From IMG/VR virus record IMGVR_UViG_3300044826_000112: a stretch of 64,000 nt of DNA; one strand, written 5' to 3'. Under the pieces are notes generated by a model that saw only the letters and a program-made list of their open reading frames with translations, searched no databases and had not been told where the DNA came from. How positions within the stretch are numbered: position 1 is the stretch's first letter; each line of letters begins with the position of its first letter. Positions 11,355 to 44,716 of the stretch are shown piece by piece. The translations under genes were made by a program, and so were the position numbers. Source of the stretch: a virus.

Positions 11355-11784
11355 AAATCTTAAGATCAGTACCCAATCTCCCGCCAGCTAACGGGAGATT
11401 AGGATGACCGAGAAACCCTTCGTTGCGGGGTAAGGTTTTACAGTGGCACAGCCAAGCCTTCCTGTCTCTAATCCTGAGATGGTAAGAATCCCTGAGGTAG
11501 GGGACTGTAAGATCCTAGGACACTCATCATATTGGATGATACTGAGCACAAACTCGTTGAGGGTATGCAAATTCCCTCTCTGGCCTTCGGGTCAGGTGGC
11601 CGAATAAAAGCCTAGCATGGGCGTTAAGGCAATCTACTGGGGATGACCTCCCCTTGTCAGGCACCGTGAGGTGTGAGATCCGCCAGAGGGAATCTGGAGT
11701 AGAGATACGAGGTAGCAATACATGCACCTAGGTCGTCGGTAGCACAGGAATCCGACTCCTTTGGGTGCTGATCTTAAGGTTTTG
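11353..11784 (+). ncRNA. large structured ncRNA (~430 nt), unknown class
   Basis: 24-bp terminal stem with two G-U pairs, many internal hairpins, between two tRNAs, no + strand ORF. Confidence 0.8.
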
Positions 11785-18059: not shown

Positions 18060-18116
18060 ATTTCTGCCCGGCCGGGGGTTTCGCCTCCTTTACCTCGGTT
18101 GGGCTTCTACATCACT

Positions 18117-18205
18117 GGGGGATGCTCACGCTAGCGGATTCCAAATCCGTCGACGTTAAATATGCGTGTGGTCGTCGTTGGGTTCGATTCCTACATCCTC
18201 TGCCA
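18117..18205 (+). tRNA. atypical tRNA-Trp(CCA): no D stem, long variable arm
   Basis: GGGGGATG/CATCCTCT-G-CCA, GCGGA-TTCCAAA-TCCGT, GG-TTCGATT-CC. Confidence 0.75.
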
Positions 18206-23838: not shown

Positions 23839-23934
23839 GGAAGAGTCATCCGAAATTGGTATCGGTCCAGTCTTGAAAACTGGTCATCGGGCTAGTACCC
23901 CGTTGTGTGAGTTCGAGTCTCACGTCTTCCGCCA
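23839..23934 (+). tRNA. tRNA-Ser(TGA)
   Basis: Long variable arm, loop CTTGAAA, G73, CCA. Confidence 0.9.
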
Positions 23935-38494: not shown

Positions 38495-38539
38495 GCTCTT
38501 CTTTTAGTCAACTTTTAGCCATTAGGGGGTATAACCATT

Positions 38540-38677
38540 ATGGGAGAACCTAGCTTTATCAAAAAGGTTGTCCGGGATCCTATGTTCCGCCACAAGGTTG
38601 AGAAGCCTGGCAAGGGCAAAGGTTCTTATCAACGTAAGCCAAAAGGAAGTAAGAATGACCCTGTACGCGAAGATTAA
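38540..38677 (+). CDS. arfA: alternative ribosome rescue factor A homolog (45 aa, not in ORF track)
   Basis: DPMFRHKVEKPGKGKGSYQRK matches ArfA [21 protein letters not shown]. Confidence 0.85.
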   Translation: MGEPSFIKKVVRDPMFRHKVEKPGKGKGSYQRKPKGSKNDPVRED

Positions 38678-39083
38678 GGCTGATTGCCTTGTGCTCCGTA
38701 AGGAACAACAGAAGGAAGAAGCAGGCGTTCTGCTTGTTGTTTTAGGTGATGCCGAGACTCGGGCTAAGCAGCTCAGTCCTGCTATGCTGGAAGCTGACGG
38801 CTCTCTTCCGGATCACGAAGTTCTGAAGATCATCAAGAAGAACATCGATGATGCCATCACCACCCTCAACGCCAAGAAGGACAACCAGAAAGCCCAGCTG
38901 ACTCGTGCCCTTCTCGAGCCCTATATGCCAACCATGCTGACTGCCGAAGAGCTCCAGGACATCCTGACCTCTGCGGTAGAAGTAGAGAGCCTCGGCTCTG
39001 CAATGAAATTCCTCAAAGAGAACTATGCCGGTAAGTATGACGGCAAGATCGCTTCTGAAGTTGCCCGTAACATGTTCGCCTAA
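38655..39083 (+). CDS. GatB/YqeY domain protein
   Basis: L..KIK.D.....K; D.EVL.II.K.I; LEPYMP.MLT.EEL; G.AM..LK....GK.DGK..S. Confidence 0.85.
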   Translation: MTLYAKIKADCLVLRKEQQKEEAGVLLVVLGDAETRAKQLSPAMLEADGSLPDHEVLKIIKKNIDDAITTLNAKKDNQKAQLTRALLEPYMPTMLTAEELQDILTSAVEVESLGSAMKFLKENYAGKYDGKIASEVARNMFA

Positions 39084-39092
39084 GGAGGCAAA

Positions 39093-40415
39093 ATGAACAT
39101 TAATCTCAAGAAACTGCTCGGTATTGGTGCAGCTGGTCTGCTCGGTGCTGTCATCCTCGTCTACGGTCTGTTCGGCTGGATCTACGTAGCTGGCGGTGAG
39201 TATGCCCGAATTCAGAAGCCTGATGGCTCCTATGAATGGCACGTCACCAACGGCTTCAAGGTGAAGACTCCGTTCCTGGATCGCTACGAGATCTTCAACC
39301 AGTACAACACCATCGACATGACCGATGGCGAGAACCCTACTGCAACGATCGATCTGCCGTTGCACAAGGTTAACTTCAACGATACCTACACCATGGATAT
39401 CGGCGTAACTGCCCGCTACTCCTTGATGCCGGATCCGGAGAAGCTGGAAATCATGTACCAGGCGAACAAGACCAACAAGGCCTTGGTTGCCAGCACCATG
39501 GTGCCGAACCTGCGTAACCTGTTGAGCCAGACTGCCAACCAGTTCCGCGGTGAGGACTACCTCCAGGGTGGTCAGAACGAGTTCCAAGCTCGTCTTTACT
39601 TCCAAGCTGAGAATGGCCTGTACGTTACCGAGCGTGTTAAGCGTGAAGTGGACGTTGAATCTGGCTACTCTGCCGACGTGAACGCTTCTGCTAACGCCGA
39701 AGGTACCAAGCAGACCAAGGCTATGGCCTGGGTTGTGGACATCGTTCGCGATGATCAAGGTAAGCCGATCACTCAAGAGAGCCAGCTGGCCAAGTTCGGC
39801 GTCATGCTGGATCTGATTGAGATCAACAAGTTCATTCCGGATCCCGATCTGGAAGCCTTCATGACTCAAAAGCGTGCCAAGATCCGTGAACGTGCCGGTA
39901 TCGTTGAAGACCAGCGTAACGCTCGTGAAGCTCAAGTAACTGCCCGCCTGATGGGTGAGAAAGAGCGTATCGAAGAGCGTAACAAGGCTCTGAAAGCTAA
40001 AGACCGTGCCGTTATTACCGAATCCCAGCAGGTAGCAGTTGAACAAGAACGTGCCAAGCTGGAAATCGTTAAGAAGGACAAGGAACTGAAGATCGCTCAG
40101 GCGAACGAAGGTATCCAAAAGGCCAACTACGAGGCTGCCAAGTATGAAGCTCTGGCTATCAAAGAGACCGGCTTGGCCGAAGCTCAGGTAGAAGACGCCA
40201 AGTATAAGGCTAAAGATCGTCAGCTCTACATGAAAGAGCTGGAGCTGGAAAACAACAAGCACCTGTACAATGCTCTGCCGGCCCTCAAGGTCCAGATGCC
40301 TCAGTACGTGCAGATGGGTGGCCAGAGTGGCATGAACAGCAACCTGGAAGCTATGTCCTCTCTCAAGCTGATGGAAGGCTTGGGTATGAGTACTCCAGCG
40401 ACTCCTGCCAAGTAA
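39093..40415 (+). CDS. SPFH (band 7/flotillin-like) membrane protein
   Basis: N-term TM, GFKVKTPF, band-7 core, long AE-rich coiled coil. Confidence 0.85.
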   Translation: MNINLKKLLGIGAAGLLGAVILVYGLFGWIYVAGGEYARIQKPDGSYEWHVTNGFKVKTPFLDRYEIFNQYNTIDMTDGENPTATIDLPLHKVNFNDTYTMDIGVTARYSLMPDPEKLEIMYQANKTNKALVASTMVPNLRNLLSQTANQFRGEDYLQGGQNEFQARLYFQAENGLYVTERVKREVDVESGYSADVNASANAEGTKQTKAMAWVVDIVRDDQGKPITQESQLAKFGVMLDLIEINKFIPDPDLEAFMTQKRAKIRERAGIVEDQRNAREAQVTARLMGEKERIEERNKALKAKDRAVITESQQVAVEQERAKLEIVKKDKELKIAQANEGIQKANYEAAKYEALAIKETGLAEAQVEDAKYKAKDRQLYMKELELENNKHLYNALPALKVQMPQYVQMGGQSGMNSNLEAMSSLKLMEGLGMSTPATPAK

Positions 40416-40654: not shown

Positions 40655-40664
40655 CGGTATAAGT

Positions 40665-40751
40665 AAGTTAGAGATGTGATAGCTGTAGATCCTGTACGAC
40701 AGATTTGGGCCACTTGGCCGCCCGGCTTACGCAAATTCCCCGGGTTTTTTT
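40665..40751 (+). ncRNA. candidate small RNA (~85 nt)
   Basis: GGTATAAG promoter, hairpins, CCCGG/CCGGG + T7 end. Confidence 0.45.
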
Positions 40752-40782
40752 ACTATCGCTGAGCGATTCGGGTATAAGTACT

Positions 40783-40948
40783 ATGTGCCAGAGGAAGCGT
40801 ATAACTCTGACACTCTCGACCGCAAGAATCAGACTCCGTCTACTCTGCAGATGCCCGCCAAGCGTCAATGCAGAATCCCATCGCTAGCGGTCGAGAGTTT
40901 CAAAAGGAATGAAAAACGTGAAGAACTCGCAAATAAGGAGTCGGAATC
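40783..40948 (+). promoter_or_regulatory. structured 5' leader / riboswitch-like element
   Basis: 12-bp perfect stem 40812..40823/40887..40898; internal GACTCC complementary to SD GGAGTC. Confidence 0.5.
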
Positions 40949-41399: not shown

Positions 41400-42014
41400 A
41401 TGTCTAAAGCACTAGACCCGATTTCTTTAGCTATCGCGAAAGCCTCGTGGTGGCATGGCGAACAGAAACGCAAGTACACCAACGATGACTACATCGTTCA
41501 CCCTATTGAAGTCATGAACTTCCTAGCCTTGTTTACTCAGGACGAGGCAGTCATGGTGGCAGCCATCCTGCACGACGTAGTAGAAGATACCCCCGCCACC
41601 GTTCAGGAAGTCGAAGCTATCTTCGGTGAGGACGTAGCCAAACTGGTATTCGGCATGTCGGAACCTGAAGTACCGGCAGGTACCAACCGCGGGGAGCGGA
41701 AGGAAATCTACCGCCTACATCTGGAGAAGCAATGCTGGCGGACCAAGATGATCAAGTTTGGGGATATCTACTCGAACACCAAAGATATCGCTATGCACGA
41801 TCCTGACTTTGCTGTAGTCTACTTGGCCGAAATCCAGCGTACTATCAACTCGATCGATGATAACCGTATCCCGCTCCTGCTCCGCCAAATGGTCAAAGAG
41901 CAGGTCAAGCTGGCTAAGCTGTACGTTGATCAGTTCCAGGCCAACAAGAAGTTGGTCAAGAAGCTGAGCAATATCAGAACTATTACCGAAACCATCAAAG
42001 GAGAACTGCTATGA
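41400..42014 (+). CDS. RelA/SpoT-type HD hydrolase (small alarmone hydrolase/Mesh1-like)
   Basis: H..Q.RK....YIVHP.EV; AAILHDVVEDT; FG..VA.LV; IK.GD..SN. Confidence 0.88.
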   Translation: MSKALDPISLAIAKASWWHGEQKRKYTNDDYIVHPIEVMNFLALFTQDEAVMVAAILHDVVEDTPATVQEVEAIFGEDVAKLVFGMSEPEVPAGTNRGERKEIYRLHLEKQCWRTKMIKFGDIYSNTKDIAMHDPDFAVVYLAEIQRTINSIDDNRIPLLLRQMVKEQVKLAKLYVDQFQANKKLVKKLSNIRTITETIKGELL

Positions 42015-43600
42015 AGAACTATCTGAACAACGCTCTTGGTCGTGCCCACCTGGCTAACGTAGAAGGCGTGGACGTCAAACTTCCCGGCCAAGTACGTACT
42101 CACGGCGGTGGTTTCGCCTTCGAGATCACTCCTGAAGTGCTGCTCGAACGCTTCCTGATCCTGGGTACCACTACCTCTCAGTACGTCGGTCCAGACAAGC
42201 TGGCAGTAGACGCTCTCGGCCGTCTGATGCCGCACATCGCTCTGAACCCGGTGACCGTGGCTCGTACCGCGGTAGAAGCCGTGGAGCAGAACCGTGTGCT
42301 GTCAAAGGTACCTGCTCTTTTCGTTTACGCTACAGCTCACACTGTGGCCACCTCTGGTGAACACCGTCGTGCCATCGCTCTGATGCTGCCTCGTATCGTC
42401 AACACCTTCTCCGACCTTCAGACCCTACTGGGTTTCGTAGCGAACACTCATAACAAGGGTATCGCTACCAGCTTGGTCAAGGCATGCCGTCGCTACCTGT
42501 ACAACATGCCGATCGACAAGATGATCAACCAGGCTCTGAAGTACCGTAAGCGTGCCGGCTGGGCAGTTCTGGACATGCTGCGTGTCATCCACCCTGTGCC
42601 GAAGGATAACGACCAGAACTTCCTGTACGGTTACATCGTGGAGAACGATGAAGCCCGTGCAGAAGCTTGCCGTCGCTTCCCGATGGTAGCAGCCTTCGAA
42701 GCTGCCAAGGTGCTGGATGATCACAACCTGATCGTCAAGCTGATCAAGGACAACGGTCTGACTTGGGAGCACGTACCTACCGAGCACCTGAACAACAAGT
42801 GGGTTTGGAAGGCTCTGCTGCCCAACCTGCCGATGACCGCTCTGATCCGTAACCTGCCGAAGATCTCTTCTGTAGGTGCGATCGATGACACCTTGTCTCT
42901 GGACATCGTGCTGGACAAGCTGAAGCCGGAGATCGTGGCAAAGGCTAAGGTTCACCCCTTCCGTCTTTACCTGGCATGGTACGGCTATGGCCAAGGCGGC
43001 AACCGCAACATGTCCTGGACTCCTAATCAGCGTATCCTCGCTGCTCTGGAGACCTGCCTGTATGCGGCATTCGCCAACGTAGAGGTGAAGGGTAAGGTGT
43101 GCATCGGCTCTGACATCTCAGGCTCTATGTGGTGGGATGACTCTCGCATCAACCGTACTGGTCCGTATGCAGGCGATGCAGCCGGCATGCTGGCAGCCAC
43201 CTTCAAGGCAGCTAATCCGGAAACTGACGTGTTCTACTTCTCCGGCCAGCTGGTCAAGGCGGCGTTCGACCCGATGTCTTTGAAGTCGGTCAACATCGAC
43301 ATGCACAAGCATCACATGGGTAGCACCAACCCAGGTTTGCTGATCTCCAAGGCCATCAAGGATAAGGTCAGATACGATGCCTTCATCGTCCTGACTGATA
43401 ATGACGTGAACAGTGGTCGTCACTCCCAGCAACTGCTGGAGACCTACCGTGCCACCGTCAATCCGAAGGCCAAGCTGATCGTCGTCGGTATGACTGCGAA
43501 CAACTTCTCCATCTCCAGCCCGGATGACGTCCTGTCTATGGACATCGCCGGTATGGACGCAGGGATCATGACTGCGATCGAGAAGTTCATCGCAATGTAA
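42011..43600 (+). CDS. Ro60/Rsr-like TROVE + vWA domain RNA-binding protein
   Basis: GGFAF....LERFLILG....Y; KYRKR.GW...D.LR..HP; LTWEHVP; LP.TALIRNL; HPF; DISGSM (MIDAS); LTDND. Confidence 0.92.
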   Translation: MKNYLNNALGRAHLANVEGVDVKLPGQVRTHGGGFAFEITPEVLLERFLILGTTTSQYVGPDKLAVDALGRLMPHIALNPVTVARTAVEAVEQNRVLSKVPALFVYATAHTVATSGEHRRAIALMLPRIVNTFSDLQTLLGFVANTHNKGIATSLVKACRRYLYNMPIDKMINQALKYRKRAGWAVLDMLRVIHPVPKDNDQNFLYGYIVENDEARAEACRRFPMVAAFEAAKVLDDHNLIVKLIKDNGLTWEHVPTEHLNNKWVWKALLPNLPMTALIRNLPKISSVGAIDDTLSLDIVLDKLKPEIVAKAKVHPFRLYLAWYGYGQGGNRNMSWTPNQRILAALETCLYAAFANVEVKGKVCIGSDISGSMWWDDSRINRTGPYAGDAAGMLAATFKAANPETDVFYFSGQLVKAAFDPMSLKSVNIDMHKHHMGSTNPGLLISKAIKDKVRYDAFIVLTDNDVNSGRHSQQLLETYRATVNPKAKLIVVGMTANNFSISSPDDVLSMDIAGMDAGIMTAIEKFIAM

Positions 43601-43633
43601 TTCAACATTTGGGGTATTACGGGTATAAATATT

Positions 43634-44149
43634 ATGTGGTGAGGTATCTTACTCTTAAGTAGAGAGGAGGTAACCTCCTCACTCCGTAGTACCCCTCCGG
43701 GGCGGATCCTGGCGGATCCAACTCGGCGTTATGCTCACCAAGCGACGTACAGTATGTTCGACAAGTGTTGAACTGCAAGAGGTAACCTCTTGACTCGTTC
43801 TTCCAGGCGCCGCTCCGGGCTTCGCCCTACGCTCTGCCTGGAGTATCTATAGATTGGATCTAGCATCCGCGAGTGTACGTTAGTACCAACCACCAGAGGT
43901 AACTTTGGGAATACCAAGCGAGGAGGCTACCTCCTCATTCTGTTAAACCCGCAGTCGGCGTACAGTCCCAATCACTGTACCGCCTTCGCATGCTCTGGTT
44001 GATGCTGTGGCATCACGAGTAGTCTGTAGTATATGGACTTAGTTCCGTGGGGAGGTAACCTCCCTACTCCATTACTTCGCGTATTTGCACAGAAGTGCAA
44101 AGTACGCATGTACAGACCATAACCAAAAGAGAGTCCAACTCTCTTTTTT
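43634..44149 (+). ncRNA. Ro60-adjacent ncRNA array of four homologous structured units
   Basis: Promoter GGTATAAAT at 43622, four units (43637..43740, 43744..43881, 43892..43999, 44022..44117), terminator 44125..44149. Confidence 0.8.
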
Positions 44150-44164
44150 ACTTGGAGATTAGCC

Positions 44165-44716
44165 ATGGACCTATTCCTCGGGGTTGACCCGGGTTGGAAG
44201 AACCTCGGATGGTGCGTCTCGACAATCGATGGGGAACCTCAATTGTTCGGGACAATGAACCCTTCCGAGTATGAGTTGGGCACGGTGCCTAAGCTCATCT
44301 TAGATAGTCTCGGCAGCAAGGCGAAAAACCTGAAAGGTATTGCCATGGAGCGGTACGTCTTTTATGATGGCCGCTACAACGCTGACAGTGAGCACATCCT
44401 CATGGTTACGGGACAGTTCCAGTACATGGCTGCCTCGTTGGGGATGGAGATCAAGATGTTCCGAGCTATTGACTGGAAGACTACGCTAGCCAAGGTCTTG
44501 TTCAAGTCCAATGGCTGGCAGAATCCTTCTGATTCGTTCGACAAAGTGTTCTCAATTGCAGCTGCTAAAGAGGCAACTGGAATGGAATTCAAAGTCGACC
44601 ACGTGGCGGACGCAGGGTGCCTCGCATACCTCGCAGGACGCTACCAGAAGGCGTTGACGGCTGCTGCCCTAGGCAGTGGTCTAGGTAAGACTAAATGCTC
44701 TCAGAAACGCTCCTAG
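44165..44716 (+). CDS. RuvC-like (RNase H fold) nuclease / Holliday junction resolvase
   Basis: FLGVDPG..NLGW; IAME; WK; DHVADA. Confidence 0.82.
   Translation: MDLFLGVDPGWKNLGWCVSTIDGEPQLFGTMNPSEYELGTVPKLILDSLGSKAKNLKGIAMERYVFYDGRYNADSEHILMVTGQFQYMAASLGMEIKMFRAIDWKTTLAKVLFKSNGWQNPSDSFDKVFSIAAAKEATGMEFKVDHVADAGCLAYLAGRYQKALTAAALGSGLGKTKCSQKRS

What the first reader, a model, noticed from the sequence alone, without database searches (positions are those of the whole stretch)
43634..44149. Array of four structurally homologous RNA units downstream of Ro60
Seen: one promoter-to-terminator unit with no credible + strand ORF. Each unit has closing stem - GUA - variable hairpin - conserved 7-bp hairpin NNNGAGG-(UAA/CUA)-CCUCNNN - A(C/U)UC - variable domain - (A/G)UG - closing strand. 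Closing stems: TGGTGAG/CTCACCA (43637..43740), GACGTACA/TGTACGTT (43744..43881), ACCAGAG/CTCTGGT (43892..43999), GTCTGTA/TACAGAC (44022..44117). Conserved hairpins start at 43664, 43776, 43920 and 44049, with compensatory outer pairs. The hairpin resembles a Shine-Dalgarno/anti-SD duplex (AGGAGG/CCUCCU). It is not CRISPR-like, and I see neither the classic Y RNA GUCCGA/UUGAC helix nor YrlA T/D arms. Inference: a new class of processed, modular scaffold/guide/decoy RNAs with constant handle and variable cargo.
Basis: partly seen in the sequence, partly recalled or inferred. Interest (0 to 1): 0.9.

Follow-up and report, generated by a model that had tools for sequence, protein, structure and literature searches.

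The report
Four-unit structured RNA array beside phage Ro60
Directly after the Ro60 gene of an uncultured tRNA-rich phage lies a separately promoted row of four small structured RNAs that share one invariant hairpin; they match no catalogued RNA family and are probably an undescribed kind of partner RNA for the Ro60 ring protein.

Summary
Window 43601-44149 is a promoter-to-terminator unit with no credible ORF. It holds four units of 96-138 nt. Each has a 7-8-bp closing stem, GUA, a variable hairpin, a 7-bp hairpin with an invariant GAGG-NNN-CCUC core, ANYC, a variable domain and RWG.

Five related metagenomic contigs carry the same array directly after Ro60. Their Ro60 is 60-93% identical where the whole gene is held. 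Helices keep pairing through many double changes: 99% of cells are paired in the shared stems, against 36-56% when partners are slid. G-U pairs, a phage promoter motif and the terminator put the RNA on the + strand.

No Rfam family matches, even at E<=10. Rfam YrlA does hit beside Ro60 in other phages and metagenomic contigs. The known Ro60-binding motifs (GGUCCGA, GNCGAA, CGAA) are absent.

My covariance model finds the family only in this clade. Salmonella phage Arash, the nearest cultured relative found, lacks both Ro60 and the RNA.

Best reading (about 0.55): a lineage-specific class of Y-RNA analogues, with a constant handle and four different bodies. This scan earlier reported other phage Ro60-like genes with RNA arrays, but with a different handle (ACAGCAA).

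The parts
42011..43600 (+). Ro60 (TROVE + Ro60-type vWA) gene, overlapping the stop of the upstream HD_4 phosphohydrolase gene (41400-42014)
   Evidence: Pfam vWA_Ro60 4.5e-31 and TROVE 2.6e-22. Near-full-length match (residues 27-526 of 529) to entries named RO60 or Ro: 9nen 2.9e-48, 1yvp 7.7e-44, 2nvo 9e-44.
43601..43629 (+). Promoter-like site: TTCAAC, 17 nt, TATAAA, containing the phage motif GGTATAA (43622-43628). The inferred start, about 43636, is the first base of unit 1.
   Evidence: Conserved in all six variants. GGTATAA occurs 27 times on the + strand and never on the - strand of the window, mostly in front of genes and tRNAs. TTCAAC-N16-18-TATAA has 2 matches against 0.03 expected. 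The start site itself is inferred.
43637..43740 (+). Unit 1 (104 nt): 7-bp closing stem, GUA, hairpin, constant hairpin 43664-43680, ACUC, three-way domain, AUG, closing strand
   Evidence: Fold; R1 81.9 bits. Its stems covary with the other units. There is no compensatory change among its own orthologues. It is replaced by a 40-nt hairpin in L027.
43744..43881 (+). Unit 2 (138 nt): 8-bp closing stem, constant hairpin 43776-43792, large branched domain
   Evidence: z -4.2. Eight pairs have changes on both sides among six orthologues; 95% of cells are paired against 34-43% when slid.
43892..43999 (+). Unit 3 (108 nt): closing stem, constant hairpin 43920-43936, linker with invariant AACCCGC, 10-bp hairpin
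   Evidence: R1 93.3 bits.
44001..44014 (+). Small spacer hairpin between units 3 and 4 (GATGC-TGTG-GCATC)
   Evidence: Kept in all variants. It reads GACCC-TT-GGGTC in L027, that is, compensatory changes.
44022..44117 (+). Unit 4 (96 nt): closing stem, constant hairpin 44049-44065, linker, 12-bp hairpin
   Evidence: z -6.1. Seven pairs have changes on both sides; 95% of cells are paired against 27-54% when slid.
44125..44149 (+). Intrinsic-terminator-like hairpin followed by a T run, 15 nt before the next start codon (44165)
   Evidence: Fold z -5.4. The stem arms and the T run are invariant in the aligned variants; only the loop varies.

Best explanation
The stretch is an independent small-RNA operon of the phage. 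A phage promoter placed directly after the Ro60 stop codon drives a transcript of about 515 nt, ended by an intrinsic terminator. The transcript consists of four four-way-junction RNAs.

Each RNA is closed by pairing of its own 5' and 3' ends, as in Y RNAs. Each displays the same handle: a 7-bp hairpin with an invariant GAGG/CCUC core and a triloop, plus fixed junction letters (GU after the closing stem, A-N-Y-C after the hairpin, G before the closing strand). Each carries its own conserved body.

I propose that these are the partner RNAs of the adjacent Ro60, working as analogues of Y RNAs. The handle, with or without the closing stem, docks the protein. The four bodies give four different specificities, for example tethering Ro60 to host exoribonucleases such as PNPase or gating its access to RNA substrates during infection. 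The units are probably cut apart.

Shown: the structure, its conservation, the strand, the promoter and terminator signals, linkage to Ro60, and absence of any known family. Inferred: transcription, processing, Ro60 binding and function.
For: - Structure: unit folds and covariation.
- Strand: 39 G-U against 8 A-C cells in the helices. The promoter motif is found on the + strand only. There is a conserved terminator.
- Linkage: every locus found with the RNA has it directly after Ro60. This holds for the window, L021-L028 and L046, with Ro60 identities down to 60%.
- The core GAGG/CCUC is invariant in all 23 units, while the outer pairs and the bodies change.
- Salmonella phage Arash, the nearest cultured relative found, keeps the downstream nuclease-RNR synteny but has neither Ro60 nor the RNA anywhere in its 180 kb.
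- No YrlA or other Y RNA is present anywhere in the 64-kb window at E<=1. Other Ro60 phages and four of the five metagenomic Ro60 contigs examined have YrlA or tRNA-type hits beside or within about 2.6 kb of the gene.
- Established knowledge: bacterial and phage Y RNAs are encoded next to Ro60, are 80-130 nt long, and are closed by a 5'/3' stem (PMC4201824, PMC12135203).
Against: - The motifs through which Ro60 is known to bind Y RNAs are absent. GGUCCGA and GNCGAAN0-1G are missing from all six variants, and CGAA from five of six.
- The conserved element is an internal hairpin, not the terminal stem.
- There are no expression, processing or binding data.
- The whole region is syntenic among the relatives, so adjacency alone does not separate 'partner of Ro60' from 'travels in the same module'.
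- Only six variants of one clade are known.
- Unit 1 has been lost in one lineage without loss of Ro60.
Confidence: 0.55

Rival explanations
1. The RNAs are real and new but work with a partner other than Ro60. That could be a host or phage RNA-binding protein or nuclease, the co-transcribed HD phosphohydrolase, or the small ribosomal subunit, with the GAGG/CCUC helix read as a copy of the Shine-Dalgarno/anti-SD duplex. On this view they merely travel in the same inserted module as Ro60.
For: All known Ro60-binding motifs are absent. The conserved element is an internal hairpin. GAGG/CCUC is the core of the SD/anti-SD pairing, which follows directly from the sequence. The window is rich in translation-related genes: 26 tRNAs, and ArfA and YqeY domains in the relatives' gene calls.
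Against: GGAGG is present in only two of four units and the helix is closed, so neither strand is free. There is no similarity or complementarity to the E. coli rRNA operon above shuffled controls. No other RNA-binding protein gene is evident in the module. Y RNAs are as a rule encoded next to Ro60 (PMC4201824).
Confidence: 0.25
2. The stretch is a long structured leader or attenuator that controls the downstream 183-aa RuvC-like nuclease gene (44165-44716) by read-through of the terminator.
For: The terminator ends 15 nt before the start codon, and the ribosome-binding site (GGAG) lies after the T run. All genes here are on the same strand.
Against: In phage Arash the homologous nuclease gene (54% identity) has no such leader, and ORFs abut it. 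Four modular units, each with its own closing stem, is not the anatomy of an attenuator. The terminator has a strong 10-bp stem and a T run.
Confidence: 0.07
3. A type III toxin-antitoxin-like pair: a repeated antitoxin RNA, then a terminator, then a nuclease toxin.
For: The order promoter, RNA repeats, terminator, about 180-aa protein resembles toxIN-type loci (my own knowledge of those systems).
Against: The units are 96-138 nt long and alike only in structure, not near-identical short repeats. The protein has no PADLOC or Pfam hit. Its predicted strand-helix order (three strands, then helix, strand, helix, strand, helix) and its D8/E62/D145/H146/D149 residues suggest an RNase H/RuvC-like fold, though the model is poor at pLDDT 46. 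Its homologue stands without any RNA array in Arash.
Confidence: 0.03
4. The palindromes GAGGTNACCTC act on DNA, as operators for a dimeric regulator or as part of an origin, and the RNA folds are incidental.
For: There are four near-perfect 11-bp palindromes within 400 bp.
Against: The flanking three pairs covary instead of keeping their sequence. The centre is often not symmetric (CTA, TAT, ATA). Helices far from the palindromes covary too. G-U pairs outnumber A-C pairs 39 to 8. The stretch is bracketed by a promoter and a terminator.
Confidence: 0.03

Closest known systems
YrlA/YrlB, the bacterial and phage Y RNAs bound by Rsr/Ro60 (Rfam RF02553; Chen et al. 2014, PMC4201824)
   Same: Encoded directly beside a Ro60 gene, often several per locus. 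About 100-140 nt long. The 5' and 3' ends pair into a closing stem around a multi-helix body. Also found in phages with many tRNA genes.
   Different: There is no tRNA-like T and D arm and no GNCGAAN0-1G motif. RF02553 gives no match at E<=10, whereas the same model scores 30-59 bits near Ro60 in Vibrio phage BONAISHI, Gordonia phage Mareelih, mycobacteriophage Bxz1 and two metagenomic contigs. Here the conserved element is an internal GAGG-triloop-CCUC hairpin.
Metazoan and Deinococcus Y RNAs (conserved GGUCCGA bulged helix)
   Same: Size, terminal stem plus internal multi-loop, and several paralogues per genome with different loops.
   Different: The conserved bulged helix is absent and no Rfam Y_RNA match is found. 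Here the units are arrayed in one bacterial-type transcription unit.
Thermus phage phiLo Ro60 with Yrl1/Yrl2 (PMC12135203)
   Same: A phage Ro60 with two or more small RNAs encoded next to it. That paper shows such RNAs can bind the phage Ro60 and host PNPase.
   Different: Yrl1/2 lie upstream of the gene and were defined by a CGAA motif in a stem-bulge-stem. CGAA is absent here in five of six variants. The window's Ro60 is far closer to the canonical Ro60 entries (E 1e-44 to 1e-48) than to phiLo Ro60 (1e-10).
Arrays of 'clamp helix + ACAGCAA' RNAs beside Ro60-like DUF2828 genes of phages and giant viruses
   Same: The same logic: a row of small RNAs with one constant handle and different bodies, next to a Ro60-type ring protein gene, often with its own promoter.
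   Different: The handle differs. ACAGCAA is absent, and CNGCAA occurs once, in unit 2 only, with no unit-wide pattern. The protein here is a canonical TROVE/Ro60, not DUF2828. I did not re-examine those loci.

Membership tests
Y RNA in the broad sense (RNA partner of Ro60) | Encoded next to a Ro60/TROVE gene | tested here: met
   The array starts 1 nt after the Ro60 stop codon in the window and in all five related contigs.
Y RNA in the broad sense (RNA partner of Ro60) | About 80-130 nt, with 5' and 3' ends paired into a stem around an internal loop or body | tested here: met
   Units of 96-138 nt with 7-8-bp closing stems that covary. The true RNA ends are not known.
Y RNA in the broad sense (RNA partner of Ro60) | Physically bound by Ro60 | not testable with these tools
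Canonical Y RNA (metazoa, Deinococcus) | Conserved GGUCCGA-type bulged helix in the terminal stem | tested here: not met
   No GGTCCGA within one mismatch in any of six variants. No Rfam match.
YrlA (RF02553) | tRNA-like domain with T arm and D arm | tested here: not met
   No RF02553 or tRNA hit in 43500-44250 at E<=10. ARAGORN finds nothing there. The model works on control phages.
YrlA (RF02553) and phiLo Yrl1/2 | GNCGAAN0-1G or CGAA motif on the 5' strand of the stem | tested here: not met
   GNCGAAN0-1G is absent from all six variants. CGAA is absent from five of six and occurs only in the L027 array, at two positions in its unit 2 region.
ACAGCAA-handle RNAs of DUF2828 loci (scan notes) | Clamp helix followed by ACAGCAA | tested here: not met
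   No ACAGCAA. A single CTGCAA lies in the linker just 5' of the unit 2 constant hairpin, overlapping its first base, in five variants.
Type III toxin-antitoxin RNA array | Near-identical short tandem repeats followed by a ToxN/AbiQ-type toxin | tested here: not met
   Mean column identity across the unit alignment is 50% and unit lengths differ. The downstream protein has no PADLOC or Pfam hit and an RNase H-like strand-helix order.
CRISPR array | Identical direct repeats separated by unique spacers of similar length | tested here: not met
   Only an 11-nt core recurs, at spacings of 112, 144 and 129 nt. The flanks covary as stems.

The most novel reading that the evidence does not exclude
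This would be a new class of Y RNA in which Ro60 (or a Ro60-bound factor) recognises a constant GAGG-triloop-CCUC hairpin presented on a four-way junction, instead of the terminal bulged stem. The phage would deploy four such RNAs from one operon, each body directing the Ro60 ring to a different host RNA or nuclease, as part of an HD-hydrolase/Ro60 module that reshapes host RNA metabolism or counters an RNA-targeting defence.
Probability: 0.3. Interest if true: 0.8.

Novelty: new variant of a known kind. Interest (0 to 1): 0.62.

Why it matters
Ro60 is conserved from bacteria to humans, yet how its partner RNAs are recognised and what they direct it to is known for only a few cases.

Here a canonical Ro60 has no recognisable Y RNA. 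In its place is a covarying four-member RNA family with a different constant element. That suggests Ro60-RNA recognition is more plastic than the GGUCCGA/CGAA rule implies, and that covariance models built on YrlA miss whole classes of partners.

The constant-handle, variable-body design is directly testable by pull-down, by gel shifts with compensatory hairpin mutants, and by structure determination. It would show how one ring protein can be given several specificities.

It also adds to a pattern seen elsewhere in this scan: phage Ro60-type genes accompanied by lineage-specific RNA arrays. That pattern points to a widespread, largely unstudied viral use of Ro-type particles.

Tried and rejected
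- No DNA match in 50,697 phage records. A 24-kb megablast gave only a tRNA match.
- The IMG/VR scan for GAGGTAACCTCNNNACTC gave 20 single matches. All lacked the unit anatomy, most looked like unrelated sequence, and none carried more than one core. I take them as chance.
- Ro60-based scans of IMG/VR and JGI metagenomes found no relatives. A unit-4 pattern scan of metagenomes gave one true locus (L046) and five chance ones. The same scan of species genomes gave two chance hits.
- Minimum free energy does not tell the strands apart: -659 against -656 kcal/mol summed. The strand rests on G-U counts and on the signals.
- An idea that unit 1 copies the 3' end of 16S rRNA was tested against the E. 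coli rrnH operon, sense and antisense. All four units scored within shuffled controls.
- A search for targets of the variable parts in the rest of the window found only matches of 12 nt or less, at chance level.
- The AlphaFold model of the downstream 183-aa protein was too poor (pLDDT 46) for a fold search.
- The 650-nt gap after Ro60 in Agrobacterium phage Atu_ph07 showed no comparable units.
- I did not test the Ro60 surface residues that contact Y RNA, because I could not find the residue list in the papers held.

Full report
**What is there**

The window is a tRNA-rich phage-like contig with 26 tRNA genes. No whole genome is held for it.

ORF 42011-43600 is a canonical Ro60. It hits Pfam vWA_Ro60 (4.5e-31) and TROVE (2.6e-22). 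It matches solved structures over residues 27-526 of 529: 9nen, named RO60 (2.9e-48), 1yvp, named 60-kDa SS-A/Ro (7.7e-44), and 2nvo, named Rsr (9e-44). Its start overlaps the stop of an HD_4 phosphohydrolase gene (41400-42014).

The next ORF starts at 44165. The 564 nt in between hold no + strand ORF above 30 aa.

**Checking the observation**

- The four units fold on their own into the stated anatomy, with z-scores of -3.0, -4.2, -4.3 and -6.1. The whole stretch has z = -6.7.
- The core GAGGYWACCTC occurs exactly four times in 64 kb, all of them here.
- Between units 3 and 4 lies a small extra hairpin (44001-44014).
- After unit 4 lies a strong terminator-like hairpin with a T run (44125-44149).

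**Relatives and covariation**

The phage record collection and IMG/VR hold nothing similar. A protein search found four closer Ro60 proteins, at 93, 89, 75 and 60% identity. Their contigs show the same order: HD gene, Ro60, a gap of about 490-560 nt, then the 183-aa gene. A pattern scan of metagenome contigs added a sixth variant, L046, 96% identical in DNA.

All of them carry the array. The most distant one (L027) has a plain 40-nt hairpin in place of unit 1.

- On the alignment of five loci, RNAalifold recovers units 2-4 with 23 pairs that changed on both sides.
- Per-unit alignments give 8, 4 and 7 such pairs for units 2, 3 and 4.
- Given the structure, 95% of cells pair, against 27-54% when partners are slid by 1-3 columns.
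- Across 19 units aligned as paralogues, the closing stem and the constant hairpin are 99.2% paired (slid: 36-56%). All seven closing-stem pairs and the three outer hairpin pairs change on both sides. The four inner pairs GAGG/CCUC never vary.
- Also invariant in those 19 units are GU after the closing stem, A-N-U-C after the hairpin, and G before the closing strand. L046 unit 4 has AACC.
- The triloop itself varies: UAA, AAA, UUA, CUA, CAA, UAU, AUA.
- Unit 1 has no compensatory change among its own orthologues. Its support comes from the comparison between units.

**Strand and signals**

Free energy does not separate the strands. In the supported helices, however, there are 39 G-U cells against 8 A-C cells. 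This favours the + strand.

The sequence after the Ro60 stop reads TTCAAC, 17 nt, TATAAA, and is conserved in all variants. It contains GGTATAA, a motif that occurs 27 times on the + strand and never on the - strand, typically in front of genes and tRNAs. A start about 7 nt after the -10 element would fall on the first base of unit 1; this is an inference.

**What it is not**

Rfam gives no match in 43500-44250, apart from a meaningless 14-bit hit at E = 5. It gives no Y RNA or YrlA anywhere in the window at E<=1.

As a positive control, the same YrlA model scores 59 and 36 bits directly upstream of Ro60 in Vibrio phage BONAISHI, 52 bits in Gordonia phage Mareelih and 32 bits in mycobacteriophage Bxz1. 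YrlA or elongated tRNA-type hits also lie upstream of Ro60 in four of five metagenomic contigs whose Ro60 is 33-36% identical to this one.

The known Ro60-binding motifs are missing. GGUCCGA and GNCGAAN0-1G are absent from all six variants, and CGAA from five of six. The same holds for the ACAGCAA handle that earlier notes of this scan report beside DUF2828 Ro60-like genes.

My covariance model R1 finds the four units at 72-93 bits and every unit in the relatives at 55-97 bits. It finds nothing, not even a partial hairpin match, in 11 other Ro60 neighbourhoods.

**Context**

A structural protein (41% identity) and the downstream 183-aa protein (54% identity) tie the phage backbone to Salmonella phage Arash and three Vibrio phages. 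Arash keeps the order nuclease gene, phosphohydrolase, ribonucleotide reductase. It has no Ro60, and no R1 match in its 180 kb.

So HD-Ro60-RNA looks like an inserted module, and the nuclease gene is backbone rather than part of it. That protein has no family hit. A poor model (pLDDT 46) has the strand-helix order of the RNase H/RuvC fold, and there are conserved D8, E62, D145, H146 and D149.

**How it most likely works**

I read the stretch as a small-RNA operon giving four Y-RNA-like molecules. Each has a closing stem, a constant handle and an individual body. Their most likely partner is the adjacent Ro60 (confidence 0.55).

This rests on four things:
- the general rule that Y RNAs are encoded beside Ro60 (PMC4201824, PMC12135203);
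- strict co-occurrence in this clade;
- absence of any other Y RNA candidate in the window;
- the size and end-pairing of the units.

Against it stand the missing binding motifs and the lack of any binding or expression data.

The handle could equally serve another protein (0.25). A leader for the nuclease gene, a type III toxin-antitoxin-like pair and a DNA operator are each unlikely, for the reasons given under rivals. I found no support for guide or mimic functions: there is no similarity or complementarity to the E. coli rRNA operon or to the rest of the window beyond chance.

**Novelty**

I found no description of such RNAs in the papers I could search and none in Rfam. The protein-RNA pairing as such is known, so I class this as a new variant of a known kind: a new RNA class beside a canonical Ro60, so far seen in six variants of one uncultured phage clade.

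Noticed in passing
window, 27 sites on the + strand (e.g. 2840, 7522, 10622, 38528, 40656, 40771, 43622, 58201): The motif GGTATAA(G/A)TA occurs 27 times on the + strand and never on the - strand, mostly just upstream of genes and tRNAs. It is probably this phage's main promoter element. A subset also has a TCAAC -35-like box about 17 nt upstream.
   Followed up: partly
window 11580-11761 (+): A sub-threshold but significant match to the manA RNA motif (RF01745; 42 bits, E 1.6e-7, gathering score 55), lying among the tRNA genes.
   Followed up: no
window 23839-23930 and 18116-18202 (+): Weak tRNA-Sec-type matches (41 and 29 bits) next to tRNA genes. ARAGORN did not call them. They may be extra long-arm tRNA-like RNAs.
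   Followed up: no
L027 5605-5644 (and L028): In the most distant relative, unit 1 is replaced by a 40-nt element. It keeps a 7-bp closing stem (TAGGGAG/CTCCCTA) around one small hairpin but lacks the constant GAGG hairpin. This is either a decayed unit or a minimal one.
   Followed up: partly
window 38528-40415; L021 532-2407: Upstream operon whose products hit ArfA (45 aa), YqeY (142 aa) and an SPFH/Band 7 protein (440 aa). These are translation-rescue-type genes in a phage, conserved in all relatives.
   Followed up: no
window 44165-44716: A 183-aa protein with no family hit. It has conserved D8, E62, D145, H146 and D149 and an RNase H-like strand-helix order, so it is probably a RuvC-like nuclease. 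It is shared with Salmonella phage Arash ('endonuclease') and Vibrio phages D69/D148/D181.
   Followed up: partly
window 40656-40948: Two GGTATAA promoter motifs (40656, 40771) precede about 180-290 nt without a called gene, upstream of the 131-aa ORF that comes before the HD-Ro60 pair. Another note of this scan suggests a structured leader or RNA there. Neither R1 nor Rfam finds anything.
   Followed up: no
L031 4112-4761 (Agrobacterium phage Atu_ph07): There is a 650-nt unannotated AT-rich gap directly after its Ro60 gene, which is annotated 'Clp protease-like'. No YrlA or R1 hit and no obvious repeated units.
   Followed up: partly
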